Source: Candidatus Latescibacterota bacterium
GTDB lineage: Bacteria; Krumholzibacteriota; Krumholzibacteriia; LZORAL124-64-63
Direction: 5' to 3'
DNA length: 64,000 nt
Assembly (NCBI GenBank): GCA_030658975.1
Contig: JAUSBL010000112.1
Coordinates: 14,248-78,247 of the forward strand
The notes under the pieces were generated by a model. It saw nothing but the letters and a program-made list of their open reading frames with translations, did no database searches and had not been told where the DNA came from. The position numbers and the translations under genes are program-made. The first letter of the stretch is position 1. Each line of letters begins with the position of its first letter. Positions 31,846 through 41,007 of this stretch are shown piece after piece.

Positions 31846-32244
31846 ATGGGGAATCGATGGTGGGCTCAACGTAAGGCGATCGAGGCTGACCGGATCCTGG
31901 AAATGGTGCCGCAGACCCTGGTCGACTCGCGCGTCGACGGCGTCTCGCAGGTCGTCCTGCTGGAACCGCGCTTCCGCAGCGGTCCGCTCGCGCGCTGGCT
32001 GCAATCCCGCCTGCCGCCCGAACGCGCTTACATCGAAGTGCGCCTCGAGGCCTTCGGCAGCACGATCTGGCGCCTGCTGGACGGCCGCCGCAGCGTCGCC
32101 GACATCATGCGCGGGTTCGTGGCCGCGCATCCGGATCAGGCCGACAGCGCCAGCGAGCGCGTCTGGCTCTACCTGCAGGGATTGGAGCGGCACGGATTCG
32201 TGAATTTCCCGCAGGCGGCCACTCCCCCGGCCCACGTTGAATAA
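31846..32244 (+). CDS. PqqD-family / RiPP-recognition-element (RRE)-like protein, orphan
   Basis: SD CAGGAGG 8 nt upstream. C-terminal 80 aa (LEAFGSTIWRLLDGRRSVADIMRGFVAAHPDQADSASERVWLYLQGLERHGFV) fits the PqqD/RRE winged-helix pattern. Confidence 0.55.
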   Translation: MGNRWWAQRKAIEADRILEMVPQTLVDSRVDGVSQVVLLEPRFRSGPLARWLQSRLPPERAYIEVRLEAFGSTIWRLLDGRRSVADIMRGFVAAHPDQADSASERVWLYLQGLERHGFVNFPQAATPPAHVE

Positions 32245-33026: not shown

Positions 33027-33692
33027 TCAGCGCAGCAGTCGCGACGGGTCCACCGCCTCGCTCTGCACCCGCAGTTCGACGTGAAGGTAGGGTTCCTTGC
33101 CCTCGGCCGGCTGACCGGTGCGGCCCAGCGGTTCGCCCTTCAGGACGATCTTTCCGGCTTCGATCTCCAGGTCCGCGGGATCCAGGGGCGAGAGGACCGT
33201 CGCGAAACCGCCGCCGTGGTCGATGATGGCGAGGGTCCCGTAGCCGGCCTGCTCCCCCACGTAGCGCACCAGACCGTTCGCGGGCGCCACGACCTCTCCC
33301 CCGGCCGGATAGGCGATGTCCGATCCCGTGCGTCGCGCCACGATCGAACCCGCCTGGGCGCCGAAGGAGCGCAGCACGCGGCCGGATTTGCCCGTGTAGG
33401 GGTGGCGCCAGGAGATCTTGTCCGGTTGGACCTTCTGGAAGGGGGCGGCGATCCTCAGGACCTGACCGACGTGGACGATGTCGCCGGGCAACTTGTTGTG
33501 GCGGCTGATCTCGGCCACCGAGGTGCCGCAGCGCGTCGCGATCCGGCCCAGCGAGTCGCCGTTGCGCACGACGTAGCTGGCTTCGGGCGCCGCGGCCAGG
33601 GCGCCGGCCGACAGCATGACGATCAGGGCAGCGAGCGGAAAGCGGAACTTCGGGCGCCGTCGGGGCGACGGGCGCGGTGTGGGCTTGGGCAT
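33027..33692 (-). CDS. LysM-domain M23-family metallopeptidase, signal peptide
   Basis: LysM (YVVRNGDSLGRIATRCGTSVAEISRHNKL) and M23 (HxxxD...HLHVE). ATG at 33692 preceded by GGAGGA. The longer ORF-track start was rejected. Confidence 0.8.
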   Translation of the reverse strand: MPKPTPRPSPRRRPKFRFPLAALIVMLSAGALAAAPEASYVVRNGDSLGRIATRCGTSVAEISRHNKLPGDIVHVGQVLRIAAPFQKVQPDKISWRHPYTGKSGRVLRSFGAQAGSIVARRTGSDIAYPAGGEVVAPANGLVRYVGEQAGYGTLAIIDHGGGFATVLSPLDPADLEIEAGKIVLKGEPLGRTGQPAEGKEPYLHVELRVQSEAVDPSRLLR

Positions 33693-33847
33693 GGGCGGCA
33701 GTCCTCCGTGGCTGGTCGTCCTGTGCGGATGATGGCCGTGAACACCCCGCGGGGCAAGAGGTTTCCGCAGGCGTCGGCGTGGGAACGACCCGCCTGCTCG
33801 AGCCGGACAGGGGAAAATTTCACAATTCGCAGTCTCGTCGAATTCAT

Positions 33848-33863
33848 TGTGTAATATTTCACA
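33848..33863 (+). promoter_or_regulatory. CRP-family-like binding site TGTGT-N6-TCACA upstream of the DUF485-actP operon
   Basis: AT-rich 16-nt dyad TGTGTAATATTTCACA (one mismatch to TGTGA-N6-TCACA) in an otherwise GC-rich divergent intergenic region, about 95 nt upstream of the DUF485 start. Confidence 0.4.
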
Positions 33864-33958
33864 GCATGCTAGGTTTCCACGCATTGCGCTCCCCAGGGCG
33901 GCGCCCGGCGGCTTCCGGCGCTCCCCCCCTGTCGTCCGCCTGCACCCTAGGAGGGAAG

Positions 33959-34258
33959 ATGCTCCACGGACCCGCCCGCTCTTCCGGTCCGGATCCCGCC
34001 AGCGGCTACAAGACCCGGCTGGGCGTCGTGATGTTCATCATCTACTGCGTCGTCTACGCCGGGTTCGTCATGACGAACGTCGTCAACGAAGGCCGCGCGA
34101 TGCAGACCATCGTGTTCGCCGGGCTCAACCTCGCCGTGGTCTACGGCTTCGGGCTGATCATCTTCGCCCTGGTCCTGGCGCTCATCTACAACCATCTCTG
34201 CACGCGCAAGGAGCGCGAGCTGAACGTTACCCGCAGCGAGAAAGGGGCCGGCGCATGA
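33959..34258 (+). CDS. DUF485 (YjcH-family) small membrane protein, actP partner
   Basis: Two TM helices, roughly 100 aa. SD AGGAGGGAAG. Stop overlaps the actP start (ATGA). Confidence 0.8.
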   Translation: MLHGPARSSGPDPASGYKTRLGVVMFIIYCVVYAGFVMTNVVNEGRAMQTIVFAGLNLAVVYGFGLIIFALVLALIYNHLCTRKERELNVTRSEKGAGA

Positions 34259-36129
34259 ACCTGCACGGAACGCCCCTCTCCATCGTCATCTTCGCGCTGT
34301 TCGTCGCGGCGGTGCTGTTCCTGAGCTTCTTCTTCGCGCGCAAGGCGAAGTCGGCTGCGGGCTACTACGCCGCCGGCGGGCAGATCCACTGGGCGGTCAA
34401 CGGGATCAGCTTCGCCGGGGACTACCTGTCGGCCGCGTCGTTTCTGGGCATCTGCGGCATGATCGCGACGCTCGGCTACGACGGCTTCCTGTATTCCATC
34501 GGCTACCTGGCCGGTTGGGTCGTGGCGCTGTTCGTGGTGGCCGAGCCCATGAAGCGCATGGGCAAGTTCACCTTCACCGACGCCCTGGACGCCAAGTTCG
34601 ACAGTCGCGGCATCAAGCTGGCCGCGGCCATCTCCACGCTGGTGGTGTCGATCTGCTACCTCATCCCGCAGATGAACGGCGCCGGGTCGCTGGTGGAACC
34701 GCTGCTCGGCCTGCCCCACTGGGTGGGCGTGATCCTGGTGGGCGCCATCGTGATCGTCATCGTGTCGGCCGCAGGCATGACCTCCACGACCTACGTGCAG
34801 TTCCTCAAGGGCGGCCTGCTGCTGATCTTCTCCACCATCCTGGTGGGCTTCGTGCTCTCGCGCGGCCTGAGCACCGAGCCCGTGGGGCTCGAGAGCGGCG
34901 CCCCCCGCGGCGAGATGACCGTGCAGGCCACCGATAGCCAGCTCCTGGAGCAGGGGTACGCGCTGTTGCACACGACCGGCAGCCTGCAGAAGTACGTCCG
35001 CGACGGGACGACCACCTGGTGGAAGCGCGAGGCCGACGGCACGCTCTGGCGGGCGCAGTGGACCAGCGACGGGGTGGTCAACGGCGTGGCCGGCGGCGTG
35101 CTGGAGCCCGTCGGCCGTCTGCGGCAAATCGGCGGCATGAGCGAAGCGGAAGCCGCCGCCGGCACCGGCTCGGTGGGCCCGCTGGATTTCCTGGCCCATC
35201 TGACCCATCCCGAGACCCGCATCGAACAGTGGCAGAAGCAGGCCGTGACCGACGAGAAGGGCGCGAAGTACGCCGTCTACACGCCCAAGATGGTCTCGGG
35301 CACCGACCAGATGAAGCCGGGCGTGAAGTTCAAGGTGCACACCACGACCGAGAAGCTCAACTTCGTGTCGCTGATGATGGCCCTGTTCTTCGGGACCGCG
35401 GCGCTGCCGCATATCCTGATCCGCTACTACACCGTGCCGAGCCCGGCCTGCGCCCGCAAGTCGACGATCGTGGCCATCGCCTCGATCGGGTTCTTCTACG
35501 TCCTGACCCTGTTCATGGGTCTCGGCGCGGCGGTCAACGGCACGGTGAACCCGGCCGACAACAACATGTCGGCGCCGCTGCTGGCGATGTCCTTCGGCGG
35601 CGTGCTGTTCGCCATCATCTCGGCCATCGCGTTCGCGACCGTGCTGGGCACCGTCGCCGGCCTGATCGTGGCCGCCTCGGGCGCGGTGGCCCACGACCTG
35701 ATGGACCGCTTCGGCCGCATGGACCTGAGCGACCGGCAGAAGGTGCGCGCCGGCAAGATCGCCGCCTTCGCCGTGGGCATCGTGGCGATCGTGCTGGGCA
35801 TCGTCTTCCGCGGGGTCAACGTGAGCTTCCTGGTCGGCTGGGCCTTCGCCGTGGCGGCGTCGGCCAACCTGCCGGCCATCCTGATGCTCCTGTTCTGGCC
35901 GCGCACCACCGCGGCGGGCATCGTGGCCTCGATCATCGTGGGCATCGTCTCCTCGCTCGGGATCATCCTGACCGGGCCGGAGATGTTCGCGGGACCGTAC
36001 GGGCTGACCGCCGAACAGGCGTGGCACCCCCTGGGGCAGCCGGGGATCATCTCGATCCCGCTGAGCTTCCTGGCGCTGATCGTGGTGTCGCTGGTGACGA
36101 AGAACCGGCGGGTCGCCGTCGAGGCCTGA
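34255..36129 (+). CDS. actP: cation/acetate symporter ActP (sodium:solute symporter family)
   Basis: SSF motifs (GGQIHWAVNGISFAGDYLSAASFLG...). 624 aa with a roughly 165-aa hydrophilic loop. Confidence 0.88.
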   Translation: MNLHGTPLSIVIFALFVAAVLFLSFFFARKAKSAAGYYAAGGQIHWAVNGISFAGDYLSAASFLGICGMIATLGYDGFLYSIGYLAGWVVALFVVAEPMKRMGKFTFTDALDAKFDSRGIKLAAAISTLVVSICYLIPQMNGAGSLVEPLLGLPHWVGVILVGAIVIVIVSAAGMTSTTYVQFLKGGLLLIFSTILVGFVLSRGLSTEPVGLESGAPRGEMTVQATDSQLLEQGYALLHTTGSLQKYVRDGTTTWWKREADGTLWRAQWTSDGVVNGVAGGVLEPVGRLRQIGGMSEAEAAAGTGSVGPLDFLAHLTHPETRIEQWQKQAVTDEKGAKYAVYTPKMVSGTDQMKPGVKFKVHTTTEKLNFVSLMMALFFGTAALPHILIRYYTVPSPACARKSTIVAIASIGFFYVLTLFMGLGAAVNGTVNPADNNMSAPLLAMSFGGVLFAIISAIAFATVLGTVAGLIVAASGAVAHDLMDRFGRMDLSDRQKVRAGKIAAFAVGIVAIVLGIVFRGVNVSFLVGWAFAVAASANLPAILMLLFWPRTTAAGIVASIIVGIVSSLGIILTGPEMFAGPYGLTAEQAWHPLGQPGIISIPLSFLALIVVSLVTKNRRVAVEA

Positions 36130-36132
36130 AAG

Positions 36133-36165
36133 CGCGGGCCGGTCGGCCGGCCCGCCTCCCTTTCC
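36133..36165 (+). terminator. hairpin GCGGGCCGG-TCGG-CCGGCCCGC followed by a pyrimidine/T-rich tract; possible partial terminator after actP
   Basis: 9-bp GC stem immediately after the actP stop, then CTCCCTTTCCTTCCC. Confidence 0.35.
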
Positions 36166-36186
36166 TTCCCGACAAGGAGTTGAACG

Positions 36187-37245
36187 ATGACCAGGACGGA
36201 CTTGCTGTTGCGGGCGGCGCTGGTGGTGTTGACGGTCACGGCCGTTCCCGCGCTGGCCGGTCCCCGCTGGGACTTCGACGACGGGGGCAACCTGCAGTTC
36301 GGTCTGCTGGGTCAGTTCCACGCCGTGACGGTGGCGGACGCCGCGGCCGACCACGACGTTTACCTGCGCCGGGGGCGCCTGATCTTCAGCGGCCAGATCG
36401 CCGACGGCGTGAAGGTCTTCGCCGAGACGGACAACGACAACGCCGGGCACAGCGCCGCGAGCGGCGTCGCCACCGACCTGCAGGACCTCTTCGTCGACCT
36501 GCGCCTGCACGGGGACCACTGGCTGGAGGTGGGGCTGATCCTGCTGCCGCTGTCCTTCGAGAGCACGTCATCGGCCGCGAGCCTGCTGGGGCTGGACTAC
36601 AACGCCGAGGTGATCAAGCTGGCCAACACCTTCGTCTGGCGCGACCAGGGCCTGATGCTGCACGGCGCTAGCGGCGGGAAGTTCGCCTACCGAGCAGGCG
36701 TCTTCGACGGCTACGAAGTCGGGACCACTAAGAATCCCGAGGCGGCGCCGCGCTTCACCGGGCACCTGGAGTACGCGGTGGTGGGCGACGCGCCCACGGC
36801 CTGGTTCCACGGGCAGGAGCGCCTGGGCGGGGATCCCTACCTGCTGCTGGGCACGGGGATCGACTACCAGAGACGGGCCAACCGCGCCGGCTACGTGTCG
36901 GCCGCCGATCCGGGCTGGACGATCGACAGCCGGGCCTTCGTGCTCGACCTGCAGTCCGGCTTCGTCGTGGGCGGGCTGTTCGGCACGCTCAACGCCGGCT
37001 GGTATGACTGGGACAATATCAATTTCCACGGCAGCACCTGGTTCGTCGAGTCGGGGTTGCGCCGCGACCGCGTGCAGGCGACGGGCAAGTTCGCCGTCGT
37101 GGATCACGACTCGGGAGTGCAGACCTCGAACGTGACGGCGGGATTGCACTACTACCGGCTGAAGCACAAGCTGCGCTACGGTCTGGAATTCAGCACCGGC
37201 GACAGCCCCAACCAGCTGTTGGCGGGCGTGCAGTTCCTGCTGTAG
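36187..37245 (+). CDS. putative outer-membrane beta-barrel porin, signal peptide
   Basis: Signal peptide ending ALAGP. Alternating amphipathic beta-strand pattern with Gly/aromatic girdle residues. SD AAGGAG. Family not resolved. Confidence 0.45.
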   Translation: MTRTDLLLRAALVVLTVTAVPALAGPRWDFDDGGNLQFGLLGQFHAVTVADAAADHDVYLRRGRLIFSGQIADGVKVFAETDNDNAGHSAASGVATDLQDLFVDLRLHGDHWLEVGLILLPLSFESTSSAASLLGLDYNAEVIKLANTFVWRDQGLMLHGASGGKFAYRAGVFDGYEVGTTKNPEAAPRFTGHLEYAVVGDAPTAWFHGQERLGGDPYLLLGTGIDYQRRANRAGYVSAADPGWTIDSRAFVLDLQSGFVVGGLFGTLNAGWYDWDNINFHGSTWFVESGLRRDRVQATGKFAVVDHDSGVQTSNVTAGLHYYRLKHKLRYGLEFSTGDSPNQLLAGVQFLL

Positions 37246-37293
37246 GCTCCGGCGTGGAGGCATCGGCATGAAATCGGCGGGCAGGTTACCACG

Positions 37294-39360
37294 ATGAAGC
37301 GTCTTGCGCTGCGCGCGGGCCTGCCCGCCCTGCTGGCCATCAGCCTCTTCTCCGGCGTGGTCTTCTTCCACTTCCTGCCCACCCTGAGCCGCGCGGTGAT
37401 GGACCAGAAGCGGCTCATGATCCGCGAGCTGACCGAGTCGTCGTGGAACATCCTGGCCCGCTACGAGGCCGAGGAGCGCGCGGGCCACCTCACGCGCGAG
37501 CAGGCCCAGGCCGCCGCCATCCTGCAGGTCCGCAGCCTCCACTACGGCCAGGAGGGCAAGGACTACTTCTGGATCAACGACCTGCAGCCGCGGATGATCG
37601 TCCACCCCTACCGGCCCGACCTCGAGGGCGAGGACCTGTCCGCCTTCGCCGACCCGCACGGCAAGCTGATCTTCGTCGCGATGGCCGACGTGGTGCGCCG
37701 CGAGGGCGCCGGGTACGTCGACTACATGTGGCAGTGGAAGGACGACCCCGCGCGCGTCGTGCCGAAGCTGTCGTACGTCATGGGTTTCGCGCCCTGGGGC
37801 TGGATCATCGGCACCGGCGTCTACACCGACGACGTCGACCGCGAGGTGGCGGCGGTGACCGGGCGGCTGCAGGCGGCGGCCCTGCTGATCCTCGCGGCCG
37901 TGACGCTGCTGCTGGTCTTCCTGCTGCGCACGAGCTACCAGGCCGAGCGCGGCCGTCTGCTCACGGCCGCCGCCCTGAAGACTTCCGAGGAGAAGTACCG
38001 CTCGCTGGTGGAATCGGCCGGCGAATCGATCTTCATGTCCGTGGGCGACGAGGGGCTCTTCGCCAACGCGAGCATGCTGAAGCTGGCGGGCTACGATCGC
38101 GAGGAGTTCGCGCGCCTGGATGCCGGGAAGCTGGTGCTCCCGACAACCGCCGAGCTGGAGAGCGGGCGCCGGCACTGGCAGGCGGTGGCCGACGGGGACC
38201 ACGCGCCGATCCGCTACGAGGCCGAGCTGGTCACGCGCGACGGCGGCGCCGTGCGGGTCATGCTGTCGTTGTCGCGCGTGGTGCTGCAGGGCAGGCCCGG
38301 GTGCATGGCCGTGGCCACCCGCCTGGCGCAGCCGCGCGTGCTCGACCTGGGCGCGGCGCGCAGCAGCGAGGACCTGGCGGCGGCGAACCGGCGCCTGGCG
38401 ACCATGGCCAGCCTGATGATGAGCCACGGGGCCGACGCGCTGCAGGTCAGCCGCATGCTCTCGCAGAACGCGGACACGGCCGTGCGCAAAGGCATCGAAC
38501 TGGCGATCGCCGAACTGGGCCCGCCGCCGTCGGACTTCGACGTCATGCTCATGGGGAGTCTCGGGCGCGCCGAGGTGAGCCTGCTGGCGGACCAGGACCA
38601 CGCCATCATCTACCCGGACCTGGAGGCCGGCGCGGAAGCGGCGGCGCGCGCCTACTTCCTGAGCCTGGGGACGCGGCTCTCCGAAATCCTGGACGCCGCG
38701 GGCTACCCCTACTGCCGGGGCGGCATCATGTCCGGGGAGCCCCGCTGCTGCCAGTCGCTCTCCGGCTGGCGGCGGACGTTCGCGGGCTGGATCCACACCC
38801 TGGAGGCCGAGGACCTGCTGCAGGTGAAGATCTTTTTCGATTTCCGGGGCGCCCTCGCGCGGGACGGGCTCGTCGCCGAACTGCGCGCCAGCCTGGCGGA
38901 CGAGATCGCGAGCGAGCCCCGCTTCCTGCACCTGCTCGCGCGCAGCGTGCTGCAGTACGAGCCGCCGCTGCGGTTGTTCGGCGGCTTCGCGCTGGAGAAG
39001 GGCGAGGCGGACCGCGCCACCTTCGACGTCAAGGGCGTCATGGCGCAGATCGTCGACTACGCGCGACTGCGCGCCCTGCAGCACGGGGTCGACGCCACCG
39101 CCACGGCGGACCGCCTGGCCGTCCTCGCGGCGGCCGGCAAGCTGCACGCCGAAACCGCGGCCGAACTCGCCGAGTCGTACCGCTTCCTGATGGACCTGCG
39201 GCTGCAGCACCAGTCCCGCCGGATCCTCGACCGCCTCGAACCCGACAACCGGCTCGAACCCGACGCCCTCGGCCCCGCGACGCGCAAGACCCTGAAGACC
39301 GTGTTCGCCCACATCAAGACGCTGCAGACCGCGCTGGACCACGAGTTCAGGGGGAGCTGA
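37294..39360 (+). CDS. membrane sensor: periplasmic sCache_2 domain, TM, PAS, and DUF294/GlnE-like nucleotidyltransferase output (DUF294 plus DUF294_C)
   Basis: Signal/TM helix. sCache_2 hallmarks (YFWINDLQPRMIVHPYRPDLEG...GYVDYMWQWKDDP...PWGWIIGTGVYTDDV). Second TM. PAS. NTase motif GSLGRAEVSLLADQDHAI (hG[GS]-x10-DxD) and C-terminal substrate-binding helical domain. Confidence 0.7.
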   Translation: MKRLALRAGLPALLAISLFSGVVFFHFLPTLSRAVMDQKRLMIRELTESSWNILARYEAEERAGHLTREQAQAAAILQVRSLHYGQEGKDYFWINDLQPRMIVHPYRPDLEGEDLSAFADPHGKLIFVAMADVVRREGAGYVDYMWQWKDDPARVVPKLSYVMGFAPWGWIIGTGVYTDDVDREVAAVTGRLQAAALLILAAVTLLLVFLLRTSYQAERGRLLTAAALKTSEEKYRSLVESAGESIFMSVGDEGLFANASMLKLAGYDREEFARLDAGKLVLPTTAELESGRRHWQAVADGDHAPIRYEAELVTRDGGAVRVMLSLSRVVLQGRPGCMAVATRLAQPRVLDLGAARSSEDLAAANRRLATMASLMMSHGADALQVSRMLSQNADTAVRKGIELAIAELGPPPSDFDVMLMGSLGRAEVSLLADQDHAIIYPDLEAGAEAAARAYFLSLGTRLSEILDAAGYPYCRGGIMSGEPRCCQSLSGWRRTFAGWIHTLEAEDLLQVKIFFDFRGALARDGLVAELRASLADEIASEPRFLHLLARSVLQYEPPLRLFGGFALEKGEADRATFDVKGVMAQIVDYARLRALQHGVDATATADRLAVLAAAGKLHAETAAELAESYRFLMDLRLQHQSRRILDRLEPDNRLEPDALGPATRKTLKTVFAHIKTLQTALDHEFRGS

Positions 39361-39365
39361 ACGCG

Positions 39366-40103
39366 ATGACGACGGGCGAAGGTTCGGTCCTGCTGCTCAG
39401 CGACGTCCACGCGCACTACGGGGTCGTCGACGCGCAGGCGGCCCACGCGCAGGAGACCTGGGGCCGTCCCGTCGAACGGGTGCTGGTGCTGGGAGACTTC
39501 GGCCTGTTCGGCGCCGAACTGCACCGCCACTTCCGGCGCGGCGGGCGACGATTCTCTCACCCGACGGCCTTCATCGAGGGCAACCACGAGGACTTCGCGG
39601 CGTTCGAGCGGCTGGTGCGCGACTACGCGGACGTCGTCACCCACCTGCCCCGCGCCTCCCGCCAACGCCTGGGCGAGTGGAACTGTCTGTGCGTCGGCGG
39701 CGCGCGCTACATGGACGCCTGGTCGACCCCGTGCGGCAGCGAGATCCGCGAGCGGGACATCGACGCCTGCCTGGCGCACGCTCCCGGCAGCATCGACTTC
39801 GTGCTGAGCCACGATTGCCCCACGGGCATCGGGGTGACCAGCGAGGTCGCGCTCGCCCACCTGGGTCCGCCCGGCGTGGCCGGCCTGGCGCGCGTGGCGG
39901 CGCACCTGCGGCCGCGCTGGTGGTTCTTCGGGCACCATCACCGCTGGCACGAGTGCGAGCACGACGGCGTTCGCTACCTGGGGCTGCCCCAGAGCTGGCA
40001 GGGGTACGCGCTGTTGGAACCGGGGGGCGAGGTGCGGCGCGTGGAGCACGAGGTCCCGTTGCCGGGCCGGGGGGTCTGGCGACGGTTGATCGGGTTGAGA
40101 TAG
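39366..40103 (+). CDS. calcineurin-like metallophosphoesterase
   Basis: Motifs LLLSDVHAHY (DxH), VLGDFG (GDxxD), EGNHED (GNH[DE]), LSHDCP and FFGHHH. Start 5 nt after the sensor gene stop. Confidence 0.75.
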   Translation: MTTGEGSVLLLSDVHAHYGVVDAQAAHAQETWGRPVERVLVLGDFGLFGAELHRHFRRGGRRFSHPTAFIEGNHEDFAAFERLVRDYADVVTHLPRASRQRLGEWNCLCVGGARYMDAWSTPCGSEIRERDIDACLAHAPGSIDFVLSHDCPTGIGVTSEVALAHLGPPGVAGLARVAAHLRPRWWFFGHHHRWHECEHDGVRYLGLPQSWQGYALLEPGGEVRRVEHEVPLPGRGVWRRLIGLR

Positions 40104-40169
40104 GAGCGGTGACATCGAACGCCGAAGAAACAGGAAAGGCCGCCCTGAGGCGGCCCGTTCCTTATCGTG

Positions 40170-40246
<77 letters not shown>

Positions 40247-40356
40247 ACCTGAACTGCGGTCCACGGCCCCCCCCGACCTCGGCCGGGGATCCGCGAAACA
40301 GACGCACAAGATGCACCTGCGGGGCGGGAAACGCAAGGACTGCTTCCGGGCCAGCG

Positions 40357-41007
40357 TCACTCCCCGGCGAGCTTCTGCACCCCGTCCAGCATCGGCACGA
40401 ACCGGCAGGCCACCGACCGCTCCACGACCGGCTCCCCCCCCACCTTGCGGTAGCGGTAGAGGATCTGATCGTCGTCGTCCCCGATCGGCAGGACCAGGAC
40501 CCCTCCCTCCCGCAGGACGTGGAAGAGCAGGGACGGCAGGCGCGGGGGGCAGGCCGTCACCACGACGGCGTCGAAGGGGCCGGCTGCGGGCTGGCCGTCG
40601 GCGCCGTCGGCCGCCCGGATCACGACGTTCGCGCAGCCCAGCTCCTCGAGCGTCCGGGCGGCGCGCAGGGCCAGCGCCTCGATGCGCTCGACGCTGACCA
40701 CTTCGCGGGCCAGCCGGGACAGGATGGCCGCCTGGTAGCCCGACCCGGTGCCCACCTCCAGGACGCGCTCGTCGCCCTTGAGCTCCAGCAGCGCGGTCAT
40801 CAGGCCCACGATGAAGGGCTGGCTGATGGTCTGGCCGTGGCCGATGGGCAGGGCGCAGCCCTGGTAGGCGCGGTGGTGCAGCAGCCGGGGCACGAAACGG
40901 TGGCGGGGCACCTCGCGCATCGCGCAGAGGACGGCCGGGTCGGTGACGCCGGCGTCGCGGATCTGCTCGTCGACCATGCGGCGGCGGGCGACGGCGTAGT
41001 CCCGCAT
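40357..41007 (-). CDS. pcm: protein-L-isoaspartate O-methyltransferase
   Basis: VLEVGTGSGYQAAILSRL SAM motif, QTISQPFIV. Start overlaps the surE stop. Confidence 0.9.
   Translation of the reverse strand: MRDYAVARRRMVDEQIRDAGVTDPAVLCAMREVPRHRFVPRLLHHRAYQGCALPIGHGQTISQPFIVGLMTALLELKGDERVLEVGTGSGYQAAILSRLAREVVSVERIEALALRAARTLEELGCANVVIRAADGADGQPAAGPFDAVVVTACPPRLPSLLFHVLREGGVLVLPIGDDDDQILYRYRKVGGEPVVERSVACRFVPMLDGVQKLAGE

What the first reader, a model, noticed from the sequence alone, without database searches (positions are those of the whole stretch)
37294..40103. Candidate undescribed carboxylate-responsive nucleotidylation switch: sCache_2-PAS-DUF294 nucleotidyltransferase sensor plus metallophosphoesterase in the DUF485-actP operon
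This protein combines a periplasmic sCache_2 domain, a PAS domain and a cytoplasmic DUF294/GlnE-like nucleotidyltransferase with the GS-x10-DxD motif and a DUF294_C substrate-binding domain. sCache_2 in chemoreceptors typically binds C2-C3 carboxylates such as acetate, lactate and pyruvate. A calcineurin-like phosphoesterase gene follows 5 nt downstream. DUF294 NTases are normally cytoplasmic cNMP/CBS fusions of unknown function. As far as I recall they are often encoded next to actP and DnaQ-like exonuclease genes, and that should be verified. Here the input is replaced by a transmembrane ligand sensor and the partner by a phosphoesterase. The coherent reading is a one-component system in which extracellular acetate triggers nucleotidylation of a target, reversed by the phosphoesterase. 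Candidate targets are ActP, the DUF485 protein or a regulator. The target and chemistry are unknown.
Basis: partly seen in the sequence, partly recalled or inferred. Interest (0 to 1): 0.75.

Follow-up and report, generated by a model that had tools for sequence, protein, structure and literature searches.

The report
Carboxylate receptor with nucleotidyltransferase output
A membrane protein predicted to sense acetate-like acids outside the cell carries a protein-AMPylase-type enzyme inside it, is always partnered with a phosphodiesterase and sits beside an acetate-type transporter; this gives an uncharacterised signalling enzyme family a predicted ligand and a testable operon.

Summary
Gene 37294-39360 encodes TM-sCache_2-TM-PAS-DUF294-DUF294_C with an intact GS-x10-DxD motif. 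A calcineurin-like phosphoesterase (39366-40103) starts 5 nt downstream. Both close a five-gene unit: DUF485, ActP-like symporter, porin, sensor, phosphoesterase.

New evidence:
- All seven residues that hold propionate in the PscD chemoreceptor are identical here and invariant in 57 relatives.
- The predicted cytoplasmic module best matches the protein AMPylases DrrA and GlnE.
- In 60 related loci from many phyla, 55 of 59 assessable sensors have a phosphoesterase fused or adjacent. It is this metallophosphoesterase, a TrpH/RNase AM-like PHP domain, or an AP-endonuclease-2 barrel.
- 50 of 54 assessable loci lie within 5 kb of a two-part SSF transporter.

The published cytoplasmic cousins (Pseudomonas PP_0354/PP_0353) pair the same enzyme with an RNase T-like exonuclease in the acetate regulon. 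Their mechanism is unknown.

Most likely this is a C2/C3-carboxylate receptor that nucleotidylates a protein tied to monocarboxylate uptake, with the phosphodiesterase as eraser. Target and chemistry remain untested, and an RNA or nucleotide product is a serious rival. The architecture is common in metagenomes, so I rate it a new variant of a known but uncharacterised kind.

The parts
33693..33958 (.). Intergenic region between the divergent M23/LysM peptidase gene and DUF485; presumed promoter/leader of the operon
   Evidence: Gene map. No sigma-70 consensus match and no Rfam family. Its role as a promoter is inferred only.
33959..34258 (+). DUF485 (YjcH-like) small membrane subunit, 99 aa; its stop overlaps the ActP start (ATGA)
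   Evidence: PF04341 E 6.8e-9. Adjacent to ActP in 40+ related loci. Y29, Y33, Y77 and C81 are invariant in 45 sequences.
34255..36129 (+). ActP/MctC-like sodium:solute symporter, 624 aa, with a ~169-aa insertion (res 202-370) predicted to be periplasmic
   Evidence: PF00474 E 3.9e-67. NCBIfam MctC 447 bits and ActP 391 bits, both below equivalog cut-offs. TM and charge count. The insertion matches no Pfam family.
36187..37245 (+). Outer-membrane porin (Porin_O_P / ExtI-like), 352 aa
   Evidence: PF07396 E 3.4e-5 and NF040900 E 5e-13, below cut-off. Present at this position only in the closest relatives L001-L004 and L039; other loci carry a DcaP-like porin nearby.
37294..39360 (+). Transmembrane sensor-nucleotidyltransferase, 688 aa: TM1-sCache_2-TM2-PAS-DUF294-DUF294_C
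   Evidence: AlphaFold2 model with mean pLDDT 89.
37399..37854 (+). Periplasmic sCache_2 ligand-binding domain (res 36-187) with a C2/C3-carboxylate pocket: Y91, W93, H104, F127, Y144, W146, K158
   Evidence: phmmer against 4K08 E 4e-39 and 5G4Y E 8e-37. Pocket residues defined in PMC5062169. All seven are invariant in alignment A2. Foldseek TM 0.94 and 0.93.
37981..38316 (+). Cytoplasmic PAS domain (res 230-341), the link between TM2 and the enzyme module
   Evidence: TIGR00229 35.2 bits against a 22.9 cut-off. The Pfam PAS models are sub-threshold. Modelled with a PAS fold.
38392..38805 (+). DUF294 Pol-beta-type nucleotidyltransferase domain (res 367-504); catalytic G421-S422-x10-D433-x-D435 encoded at 38554-38598
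   Evidence: PF03445 129.7 bits. The motif is invariant in 57 sequences. Together with the C-terminal domain it matches DrrA (E 2e-9) and GlnE (5.6e-9, 1.3e-7).
38917..39348 (+). DUF294_C helical substrate-binding domain (res 542-685), KNTase_C/GlnD-GlnE class
   Evidence: PF10335 128.5 bits and a weak GlnD_UR_UTase hit. Clan assignment and absence of the HEPN RNase motif from PMC3710099.
39366..40103 (+). Cytoplasmic calcineurin-like metallophosphoesterase, 245 aa, translationally coupled (5-nt gap; GGGGGAG inside the sensor's last codons)
   Evidence: PF00149 E 2e-9. Motifs D13-x-H15, G43-D44, G72-N73-H74-E75, H149-D150 and G189-H190-x-H192 are conserved in 32 sequences. Model pLDDT 87.8. 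Nearest folds are Dbr1, aq_1956, Rv0805 and GpdQ. Always directly after the sensor.
40137..40156 (.). GC-rich hairpin 34 nt after the phosphoesterase stop; likely end of the transcription unit
   Evidence: Terminator-like on both strands. It is followed by a minus-strand tRNA at 40173-40246.

Best explanation
This is a one-component transmembrane receptor for short (C2/C3) monocarboxylates such as acetate, propionate and pyruvate. Its output is an enzyme rather than a DNA-binding or kinase domain. Ligand binding to the periplasmic sCache_2 domain would be relayed through TM2 and the PAS domain to a GlnE/DrrA-class nucleotidyltransferase. That enzyme would covalently attach an NMP to a protein involved in monocarboxylate uptake or assimilation. 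The most economical candidate is the co-encoded two-part transporter (DUF485-ActP). The co-translated metallophosphoesterase would hydrolyse the protein-NMP phosphodiester and reset the switch, in the same way as the HD domain of GlnD or SidD acting against DrrA. SHOWN: domain order and topology; catalytic motifs of both enzymes; identity of the carboxylate pocket; operon structure; conserved linkage to a phosphoesterase and to a two-part SSF transporter across phyla; AMPylase-class fold. INFERRED: that the substrate is a protein, which protein it is, which nucleotide is used, the direction of regulation by ligand, and that the phosphoesterase reverses the modification.
For: Architecture and motifs.
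Ligand: 7/7 pocket residues identical to PscD-SD, which binds glycolate, acetate, propionate and pyruvate; McpP and Adeh_3718 share the pocket. All seven are invariant in 57 homologues, and the model superposes on 4K08/5G4Y at TM 0.94/0.93.
Enzyme class: the best structural matches of the cytoplasmic module over 337-378 columns are DrrA-Rab8a (E 2e-9), GlnE-N (5.6e-9) and GlnE-C (1.3e-7). No polymerase, CCA-adding enzyme or cGAS-type enzyme appears in the top 50.
Eraser logic: 55/59 assessable loci have a phosphoesterase fused or adjacent. It is an MPE in 42, a PHP domain (fused in one polypeptide or as the upstream gene) in 11, and an AP_endonuc_2 barrel in 2. 40 of 150 cluster representatives carry the PHP fusion. 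In Pseudomonas the homologous NTase is in an operon with an RNase T-like exonuclease.
The MPE subfamily has only 223 hits. In every one of the four places looked up (two via the sensor, two via the MPE) the MPE directly follows the sensor gene. Its fold is of the phosphodiesterase class and includes PptH, which cleaves a protein-linked phosphodiester.
Transporter link: 50/54 assessable loci have DUF485+ActP or DUF4212+SSF within 5 kb, co-directional or divergent.
Against: No nucleotidyl transfer, target or reversal has been shown for any DUF294 protein.
Deletion of the Pseudomonas homologues gives only mild propionate and pyruvate phenotypes.
All four partner phosphoesterase kinds come from families rich in nucleases or nucleotide hydrolases: RNase T-like DEDD; PHP closest to the pAp phosphatase/RNase AM group; MPE closest to the RNA-debranching enzyme Dbr1; and the endonuclease IV superfamily. 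This fits an RNA or nucleotide product as well as a protein-NMP.
Three Puniceicoccales loci (L045-L047) and one truncated Elusimicrobia locus (L053) show no recognisable phosphoesterase. Four loci with ample flanks (L028, L030, L050, L051) have no transporter nearby.
The Pfam GlnE and GlnD models score below their cut-offs.
Confidence: 0.45

Rival explanations
1. Nucleic-acid or nucleotide output. The carboxylate-gated NTase adds nucleotides to an RNA 3' end (for example a transcript or tRNA tied to acetate metabolism), or it makes a small nucleotide messenger. The partner phosphoesterase is the nuclease or phosphodiesterase that trims or degrades that product.
For: The partners are RNase T-like DEDD in Pseudomonas and PHP domains that match 3',5'-nucleoside bisphosphate phosphatase, RNase RNM and a 5'-3' exoribonuclease structure. 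The MPE has Dbr1, Rv0805 and Mre11 among its nearest folds. An AP_endonuc_2 barrel follows the sensor in two loci. The Pseudomonas authors themselves speculate about mRNA degradation.
Against: The whole two-domain enzyme module matches protein AMPylases (DrrA, GlnE), not polymerases, CCA-adding enzymes or cGAS/OAS. DUF294_C belongs with the GlnD/GlnE substrate-binding domains and lacks the HEPN RNase motif. No RNA-binding domain is present.
Confidence: 0.27
2. Small-molecule nucleotidylation. Like kanamycin nucleotidyltransferase, the enzyme adenylylates a metabolite (for instance a hydroxy-acid or another imported compound), and the phosphoesterase recycles the adduct.
For: DUF294_C lies in the same clan as the substrate-binding domain of aminoglycoside NTases. 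The system is tied to a small-molecule transporter.
Against: No KNTase-type structure ranks among the top structural matches. A periplasmic sensor plus PAS domain is signalling architecture, not what a detoxifying enzyme needs.
Confidence: 0.07
3. Non-catalytic or self-modifying switch. The NTase module acts mainly as a nucleotide-binding or auto-nucleotidylating regulatory domain that controls the transporter by direct contact. The phosphoesterase has a separate housekeeping role.
For: No trans-target is encoded in a conserved position beyond the transporter. Phenotypes in Pseudomonas are mild.
Against: The catalytic G-S and both Asp residues are invariant across 57 sequences down to 30% identity. 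Phosphoesterases of unrelated folds are repeatedly recruited and even fused, which argues for a shared chemical step rather than coincidence.
Confidence: 0.08

Closest known systems
Cytoplasmic cNMP-CBS-DUF294 signal-transduction proteins with an RNase T/DnaQ-like exonuclease partner (P. putida PP_0354/PP_0353, P. fluorescens Pflu5625, P. aeruginosa PA3233/PA3232; COG2905 by my recollection)
   Same: Same DUF294 + DUF294_C enzyme module. Same partnership with a metal-dependent phosphodiesterase in one operon. Same physiological context: the Pseudomonas genes are direct CrbR/ErdR targets alongside yjcH-actP and acs, and PA3232-PA3235 are co-induced on propionate. 115 of 150 relatives of the window protein still carry the CBS pair.
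   Different: The window protein has no cNMP-binding or CBS domains and is membrane-anchored with an extracytoplasmic ligand sensor. Its partner is a calcineurin-like metallophosphoesterase, not a DEDD exonuclease. The biochemical function of the known family is itself unknown.
GlnD (PII uridylyltransferase/uridylyl-removing enzyme) and GlnE (glutamine synthetase adenylyltransferase)
   Same: Pol-beta NTase plus a helical substrate-binding domain. Structural match to GlnE at E 5.6e-9 and 1.3e-7. The writer-plus-metal-hydrolase logic is that of GlnD's NTase and HD domains (established knowledge). The output is post-translational control of nutrient assimilation.
   Different: The Pfam GlnE and GlnD_UR_UTase models score below cut-off. 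There are no HD or ACT domains. Input is a periplasmic carboxylate sensor rather than cytoplasmic glutamine/2-oxoglutarate. No PII-like target is encoded nearby.
Legionella DrrA/SidM AMPylase with the SidD de-AMPylase
   Same: Best structural match of the enzyme module (6YX5_B, E 2e-9, 337 columns). A GlnE-like NTase writes Tyr-AMP and a separate metal-dependent phosphatase-fold enzyme erases it (established knowledge).
   Different: DrrA is a secreted effector acting on host Rab GTPases. It has no sensor domains and no sequence-level family membership with this protein.
sCache_2 chemoreceptor sensor domains PscD-SD (5G4Y/5G4Z), McpP and Adeh_3718 (4K08); also the MctS sensor kinase of the MctSR-MctP monocarboxylate system
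   Same: 38-43% identity in the Foldseek structural alignment, phmmer E 4e-39 and 8e-37, TM 0.93-0.94, and 7/7 ligand-contact residues identical. The NCBIfam MctS model hits the same region at E 8.6e-23.
   Different: Those sensors feed methyl-accepting or histidine-kinase outputs. Here the output is a nucleotidyltransferase.

Membership tests
DUF294 putative nucleotidyltransferases (PF03445 + PF10335) | Both Pfam models above their gathering scores | tested here: met
   129.7 bits against 21 and 128.5 bits against 22.5.
DUF294 putative nucleotidyltransferases (PF03445 + PF10335) | Pol-beta motif G[SG]-x9-13-D-x-[DE] plus a downstream third carboxylate | tested here: met
   G421-S422-x10-D433-Q434-D435 is invariant in 57 sequences. 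D516 (FFDFR) is also invariant and is my candidate for the third carboxylate; its role is inferred.
Canonical cNMP-CBS-DUF294 + DEDD exonuclease pair (PP_0354/PP_0353 type) | N-terminal cNMP-binding domain and CBS pair | tested here: not met
   No cNMP_binding or CBS hit; only 25 residues separate PAS from DUF294. CBS is present in 115/150 relatives.
Canonical cNMP-CBS-DUF294 + DEDD exonuclease pair (PP_0354/PP_0353 type) | RNase T/DnaQ-like exonuclease gene in the same operon | tested here: not met
   The downstream gene is PF00149 Metallophos. No DEDD gene was noticed among the neighbours examined.
Canonical cNMP-CBS-DUF294 + DEDD exonuclease pair (PP_0354/PP_0353 type) | Genomic or regulatory linkage to yjcH(DUF485)-actP | tested here: met
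   Same operon in the window; 50/54 assessable related loci.
GlnE / GlnD protein nucleotidyltransferases | Family HMMs (PF03710 GlnE, PF08335 GlnD_UR_UTase) above cut-off | tested here: not met
   19.0 bits against 24 and 18.4 bits against 21; NF008292 gives 14 bits against 487.
GlnE / GlnD protein nucleotidyltransferases | Two-domain NTase + helical substrate-binding fold | tested here: met
   Foldseek: 1V4A E 5.6e-9 (378 columns), 3K7D E 1.3e-7, DrrA 6YX5_B E 2e-9.
GlnE / GlnD protein nucleotidyltransferases | Transfer of AMP/UMP to a tyrosine of a target protein | not testable with these tools
   Needs in vitro labelling and mass spectrometry.
C2/C3-carboxylate-binding sCache_2 sensors (PscD/McpP/Adeh_3718 type) | sCache_2 model above cut-off, flanked by two TM helices | tested here: met
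   133.3 bits against 25; TM segments at ~10-30 and ~192-212.
C2/C3-carboxylate-binding sCache_2 sensors (PscD/McpP/Adeh_3718 type) | Seven pocket residues (PscD Tyr90, Trp92, His103, Phe126, Tyr143, Trp145, Lys156) | tested here: met
   Y91, W93, H104, F127, Y144, W146 and K158 are all identical and invariant in A2.
C2/C3-carboxylate-binding sCache_2 sensors (PscD/McpP/Adeh_3718 type) | Measured binding of acetate, propionate or pyruvate | not testable with these tools
   Needs ITC or thermal shift on residues ~33-190.
Calcineurin-like metallophosphoesterases (PF00149) | Family model above cut-off and the five metal-binding motifs | tested here: met
   38.6 bits against 21.5. DxH, GD, GNHE, HD and GHxH are conserved in 32 sequences. 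Fold matches Dbr1, Rv0805 and GpdQ.
ActP / MctC monocarboxylate symporters | Equivalog-level score to the ActP or MctC models | tested here: not met
   MctC 447.5 bits against 670; ActP 390.9 against 750 and 312 against 1099. The match is split by a 169-aa insertion. Membership in the SSF superfamily is met.
Two-component sensor kinases (MctS type) | HisKA/HATPase_c transmitter | tested here: not met
   Only the sensor region (res 30-206) matches MctS; there are no kinase domains.

The most novel reading that the evidence does not exclude
DUF294 proteins are a widespread class of signal-gated protein nucleotidyltransferases. Each would be paired with a dedicated de-nucleotidylase recruited from at least four unrelated phosphoesterase folds (DEDD, PHP, calcineurin-like, endonuclease IV-like). 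The transmembrane sCache_2 forms, including this one, would then be the first receptor AMPylases/UMPylases: they read external acetate, propionate or pyruvate and gate the adjacent two-subunit SSF carboxylate transporter post-translationally. This would be a carbon-side analogue of the GlnD-PII-AmtB circuit.
Probability: 0.3. Interest if true: 0.85.

Novelty: new variant of a known kind. Interest (0 to 1): 0.6.

Why it matters
DUF294 (the cNMP-CBS-nucleotidyltransferase family) is among the most strongly acetate-regulated genes in Pseudomonas, yet it still has no known chemistry or target. The transmembrane variants supply what the cytoplasmic ones lack.

- They have a confidently predicted ligand.
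- They form a compact operon with the transporter.
- They show a natural experiment in which unrelated phosphoesterases replace one another or are fused to the enzyme. That points to a write/erase cycle on a phosphodiester.

This makes the family's function directly testable. If confirmed, nucleotidylation would join the known outputs of bacterial transmembrane receptors, and post-translational control would join the regulation of short-chain fatty-acid uptake.

Tried and rejected
- Literature search for 'DUF294': most hits were DUF2946. The whole-word search gave three papers and none reports a function. A search for Cache + nucleotidyltransferase + AMPylation gave nothing.
- PDB sequence search found no solved DUF294 relative and only faint Dbr1 hits for the phosphoesterase. 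Fold search was needed for both.
- No sigma-70-like promoter was found in 33500-40500. No Rfam family other than tRNAs was found in the window, so no known riboswitch lies in the leader.
- Unbiased clustering of neighbouring ORFs was noisy, because stop-to-stop ORFs in 70% GC DNA create spurious families. Beyond sensor, transporter, phosphoesterase, porin and occasional two-component genes it revealed no further conserved neighbour, so no separate target gene emerged.
- The ~150-aa N-terminal domain of the Puniceicoccales sensors and the ActP insertion match no Pfam family; the former also matches no NCBIfam family.
- I considered the sensor as a histidine-kinase or chemoreceptor fragment and rejected this, because it has no transmitter or MCP domains.
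- I considered the phosphoesterase as a chance neighbour and rejected this on conservation and on the PHP fusions.
- I looked for a conserved cytoplasmic tyrosine in DUF485 as a candidate site. Y77 is invariant but sits at the membrane interface and may simply be a family feature, so I draw no conclusion from it.


Full report
**1. What is in the sequence**

The window is ~70% GC, so raw ORF lists are crowded. A GC3-based filter plus profile searches gives a clear map.
- M23/LysM peptidase, 33027-33692 (-), divergent from the operon.
- DUF485, 33959-34258 (+).
- ActP/MctC-like SSF symporter, 34255-36129 (+); its start overlaps the DUF485 stop.
- Porin, 36187-37245 (+).
- Sensor, 37294-39360 (+).
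- Metallophosphoesterase (MPE), 39366-40103 (+).
- GC-rich hairpin at 40137-40156, a minus-strand tRNA at 40173-40246, and convergent pcm and surE.

The rest of the window encodes housekeeping genes: DnaK, ThrRS, RNase Y, RecN, MutS, S1 and Der. The locus is therefore chromosomal. A 100% identical protein is deposited from a MAG labelled Candidatus Latescibacteria, and the nearest relatives are labelled Krumholzibacteriia.

**2.

The 688-aa protein has these domains:
- sCache_2, residues 36-187, E 8.9e-39.
- PAS, residues 230-341. TIGR00229 is above its cut-off; the Pfam PAS models are below theirs.
- DUF294, residues 367-504, E 8.9e-38.
- DUF294_C, residues 542-685, E 2.3e-37.

Two hydrophobic segments (~10-30 and ~192-212) bracket the Cache domain. 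That places the Cache domain in the periplasm and everything after residue ~213 in the cytoplasm.

The motif G421-S422-x10-D433-Q434-D435 is present. It is invariant in a 57-sequence alignment that reaches down to 30% identity.

The MPE starts 5 nt after the sensor stop, with a GGGGGAG stretch inside the sensor's last codons. It has no signal peptide and keeps all metal-binding motifs.

**3. What the sensor domain recognises**

By sequence, the Cache domain matches the solved sensor domains of two chemoreceptors: Adeh_3718 (4K08, E 4e-39) and PscD (5G4Y, E 8e-37).

The PscD paper defines seven residues that contact propionate. It shows that PscD binds glycolate, acetate, propionate and pyruvate, that McpP shares the pocket, and that Adeh_3718 crystallised with acetate (PMC5062169).

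Mapping through the HMMER alignment gives Y91, W93, H104, F127, Y144, W146 and K158 in the window protein. All seven are identical to PscD, and all are invariant columns in alignment A2. The AlphaFold2 model (pLDDT 89) superposes on 4K08 and 5G4Y with TM 0.94 and 0.93.

I regard C2/C3-carboxylate binding as strongly predicted. It has not been measured.

**4. What kind of enzyme the output is**

No solved structure is detectable for the DUF294 part by sequence.

By fold, the whole cytoplasmic module (NTase plus helical domain, 337-378 aligned columns) is closest to three structures:
- DrrA in complex with Rab8a (E 2e-9).
- The N-terminal domain of GlnE (5.6e-9).
- The C-terminal adenylylation domain of GlnE (1.3e-7).

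All three add or remove AMP on protein tyrosines. No nucleic-acid polymerase or cyclic-nucleotide synthase ranks among the top 50. DUF294_C is classed with the GlnD/GlnE C-terminal domains and lacks the HEPN RNase motif (PMC3710099). At the sequence-family level the protein is not GlnE or GlnD, because both models score below cut-off.

**5. The phosphoesterase**

The model is confident (pLDDT 87.8). Its nearest solved folds are all phosphodiesterases:
- RNA lariat debranching enzyme Dbr1 (E 5e-10).
- aq_1956.
- The cyclic-nucleotide phosphodiesterase Rv0805.
- Glycerophosphodiesterase GpdQ.
- Further down: LpxH, Mre11 and PptH, which removes phosphopantetheine from a protein serine.

The subfamily is small, with 223 hits. 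In all four places looked up, two found through the sensor protein and two through the MPE, the MPE directly follows a sensor gene.

**6. Comparative genomics**

A scan of species-representative genomes returned 80 loci. Of these, 60 contain a full-length sensor with the enzyme module. Results come from tblastn and HMM searches with the window's proteins and with domains found in relatives.

Close family:
- All 38 Krumholzibacteriia-type loci have the MPE directly downstream of the sensor.
- DUF485-ActP is adjacent in most of them. It is co-directional with a porin in the closest relatives and divergent in the others.

More distant relatives:
- Victivallales, Lentisphaeria and Verrucomicrobiia sensors keep an MPE.
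- An Elusimicrobia locus has the order sensor, DUF485, ActP, then a divergent MPE.
- Eleven loci from Sumerlaeota, Anaerolineae, Spirochaetota, Gemmatimonadota, Eisenbacteria, Kiritimatiellia and others have no MPE but carry a PHP phosphoesterase. It is either fused N-terminally in one polypeptide or encoded by the gene immediately upstream.
- Two loci have an AP_endonuc_2 TIM-barrel gene convergent on the sensor.

Overall tallies:
- 55 of 59 assessable loci have a phosphoesterase.
- 50 of 54 have a two-part SSF transporter within 5 kb, either DUF485+ActP or DUF4212+VC_2705-type SSF, often with a porin.

Among the 150 best cluster representatives at 50% identity, all have the Cache-to-DUF294 arrangement. 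Of these, 40 carry the PHP fusion and 115 a CBS pair. The window's CBS-less, PHP-less 688-aa protein is therefore a minimal form of a large family.

**7. Relation to what is published**

The cytoplasmic cNMP-CBS-DUF294 proteins of Pseudomonas are direct targets of the acetate two-component system CrbS/R (MxtR/ErdR), together with yjcH-actP and acs.
- PP_0354 forms an operon with PP_0353, an RNase T-like exonuclease.
- Deletions give no acetate phenotype and only moderate defects on propionate and pyruvate.
- The authors state that the mechanism is unknown and suggest protein modification or mRNA degradation (PMC5715377, PMC9927547, bioRxiv 10.64898/2026.09.07.749794).
- In P. aeruginosa the PA3232-PA3235 cluster, which includes actP, is induced 16-fold on propionate.
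- In Bacilli a DUF294 gene sits beside dnaQ.

I found no paper on Cache-linked DUF294 proteins.

**8. Mechanism**

The recurrent recruitment of unrelated metal-dependent phosphodiesterases, including fusion into the same polypeptide with a topology that keeps PHP and NTase both cytoplasmic, argues for a shared chemical step. The NTase would make a phosphodiester that the partner breaks.

Combined with the AMPylase-class fold, my preferred reading is this:
- Periplasmic carboxylate binding is relayed through PAS to the nucleotidyltransferase.
- The enzyme NMPylates a protein; the adjacent transporter complex is the most parsimonious target.
- The MPE erases the mark, as the HD domain does in GlnD and SidD does against DrrA.

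I put this at about 0.45.

The main rival, at about 0.27, is that the product is an RNA 3' tail or a nucleotide messenger. Every partner family is nuclease-rich:
- The fused PHP domains match pAp phosphatase, RNase RNM and a 5'-3' exoribonuclease structure.
- The MPE is closest to Dbr1.
- The Pseudomonas partner is RNase T-like.

Chemically, releasing 5'-NMP from Tyr-NMP resembles exonuclease action, so the partner identities do not decide between the two models.

Minor rivals are small-molecule nucleotidylation and a non-catalytic switch. The first has no structural support. The second is contradicted by the invariant catalytic residues.

**9. Verdict**

The system is a transmembrane, MPE-partnered variant of the known but mechanistically uncharacterised DUF294 signalling nucleotidyltransferases. 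It is not a rarity, but it offers a tractable entry point into that family.

Interest is 0.6. It would rise to about 0.85 if receptor-controlled protein nucleotidylation of a transporter were demonstrated.

Noticed in passing
window 34858-35364 (ActP residues 202-370): The ActP-like symporter carries a ~169-aa hydrophilic insertion between TM6 and TM7 that splits every ActP/MctC/SSF model match. TM counting and the positive-inside rule place it in the periplasm. It matches no Pfam family. Sensor-linked ActP genes in other phyla are also long (about 630-700 aa, against the 527-552-position ActP/MctC models).
   Followed up: partly
window 37268-37297: A 9-codon mini-ORF (MKSAGRLPR) lies between porin and sensor. 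It is preceded by GGAGG, and its TGA stop overlaps the sensor ATG (ATGA). The arrangement is kept in L001, L003, L004 and L039, but these loci are too close to tell selection from shared ancestry.
   Followed up: partly
P0134, P0140, P0165; loci L041, L043, L050-L052, L055, L056, L058, L059, L062, L068, L076: Distant relatives of the sensor have a PHP phosphoesterase domain fused N-terminally or encoded by the gene directly upstream. The domain is most similar to 3',5'-nucleoside bisphosphate phosphatase, RNase RNM and PDB entries 2YB1 and 7UG9. These loci lack the metallophosphoesterase.
   Followed up: yes
L069:12856-13692 (-) and L072:8419-9234 (-): An AP_endonuc_2 / xylose-isomerase-like TIM-barrel gene lies convergent immediately after the sensor in an Ectothiorhodospiraceae MAG and a KSB1 MAG. 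Neither locus has an MPE or PHP. It may be a fourth alternative phosphoesterase partner, or it may be an unrelated sugar enzyme.
   Followed up: partly
L046:9539-10000, L045:774-1250, L047: Puniceicoccales sensors begin with a ~150-aa His/Asp-rich cytoplasmic domain (e.g. ...YGHRKYRHC...KYHEHEDD...) that matches no Pfam or NCBIfam family. These are the only well-covered loci without a recognisable phosphoesterase, so this domain could be a divergent one.
   Followed up: partly
L044-L046 (HK + LuxR-type RR upstream); RR-like hits in L011, L012, L079; HK in L041: Two-component system genes often sit next to the sensor-transporter cluster. Transcriptional control may therefore run in parallel with the proposed post-translational switch.
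   Followed up: no
L045-L047, L069, L072: In these loci the sensor is linked to a DUF4212 small subunit plus a VC_2705-type SSF transporter and a DcaP-like porin, not to DUF485-ActP. The association is thus with two-part SSF carboxylate transporters in general.
   Followed up: yes
record titles of L002, L015-L017, L019-L023, L028, L037, L039: Loci 58-95% identical to the window (best aligned segment), and with the same gene order, are labelled Fibrobacter, Polyangiaceae, Gemmatimonas, Burkholderiales, Bdellovibrionales or Planctomycetota. These are most likely MAG mislabelling or mis-binning of Krumholzibacteriota contigs rather than horizontal transfer.
   Followed up: no
window 40137-40246: A GC-rich hairpin that reads as terminator-like on both strands lies between the MPE stop and a minus-strand tRNA gene. 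It may terminate both convergent units. The window holds eight tRNA genes in all.
   Followed up: no
window 31846-32244 (+): A small PqqD-like protein (PF05402, E 3e-6) is encoded upstream, near apt. No obvious RiPP or PQQ partner genes were seen among the neighbours examined.
   Followed up: no
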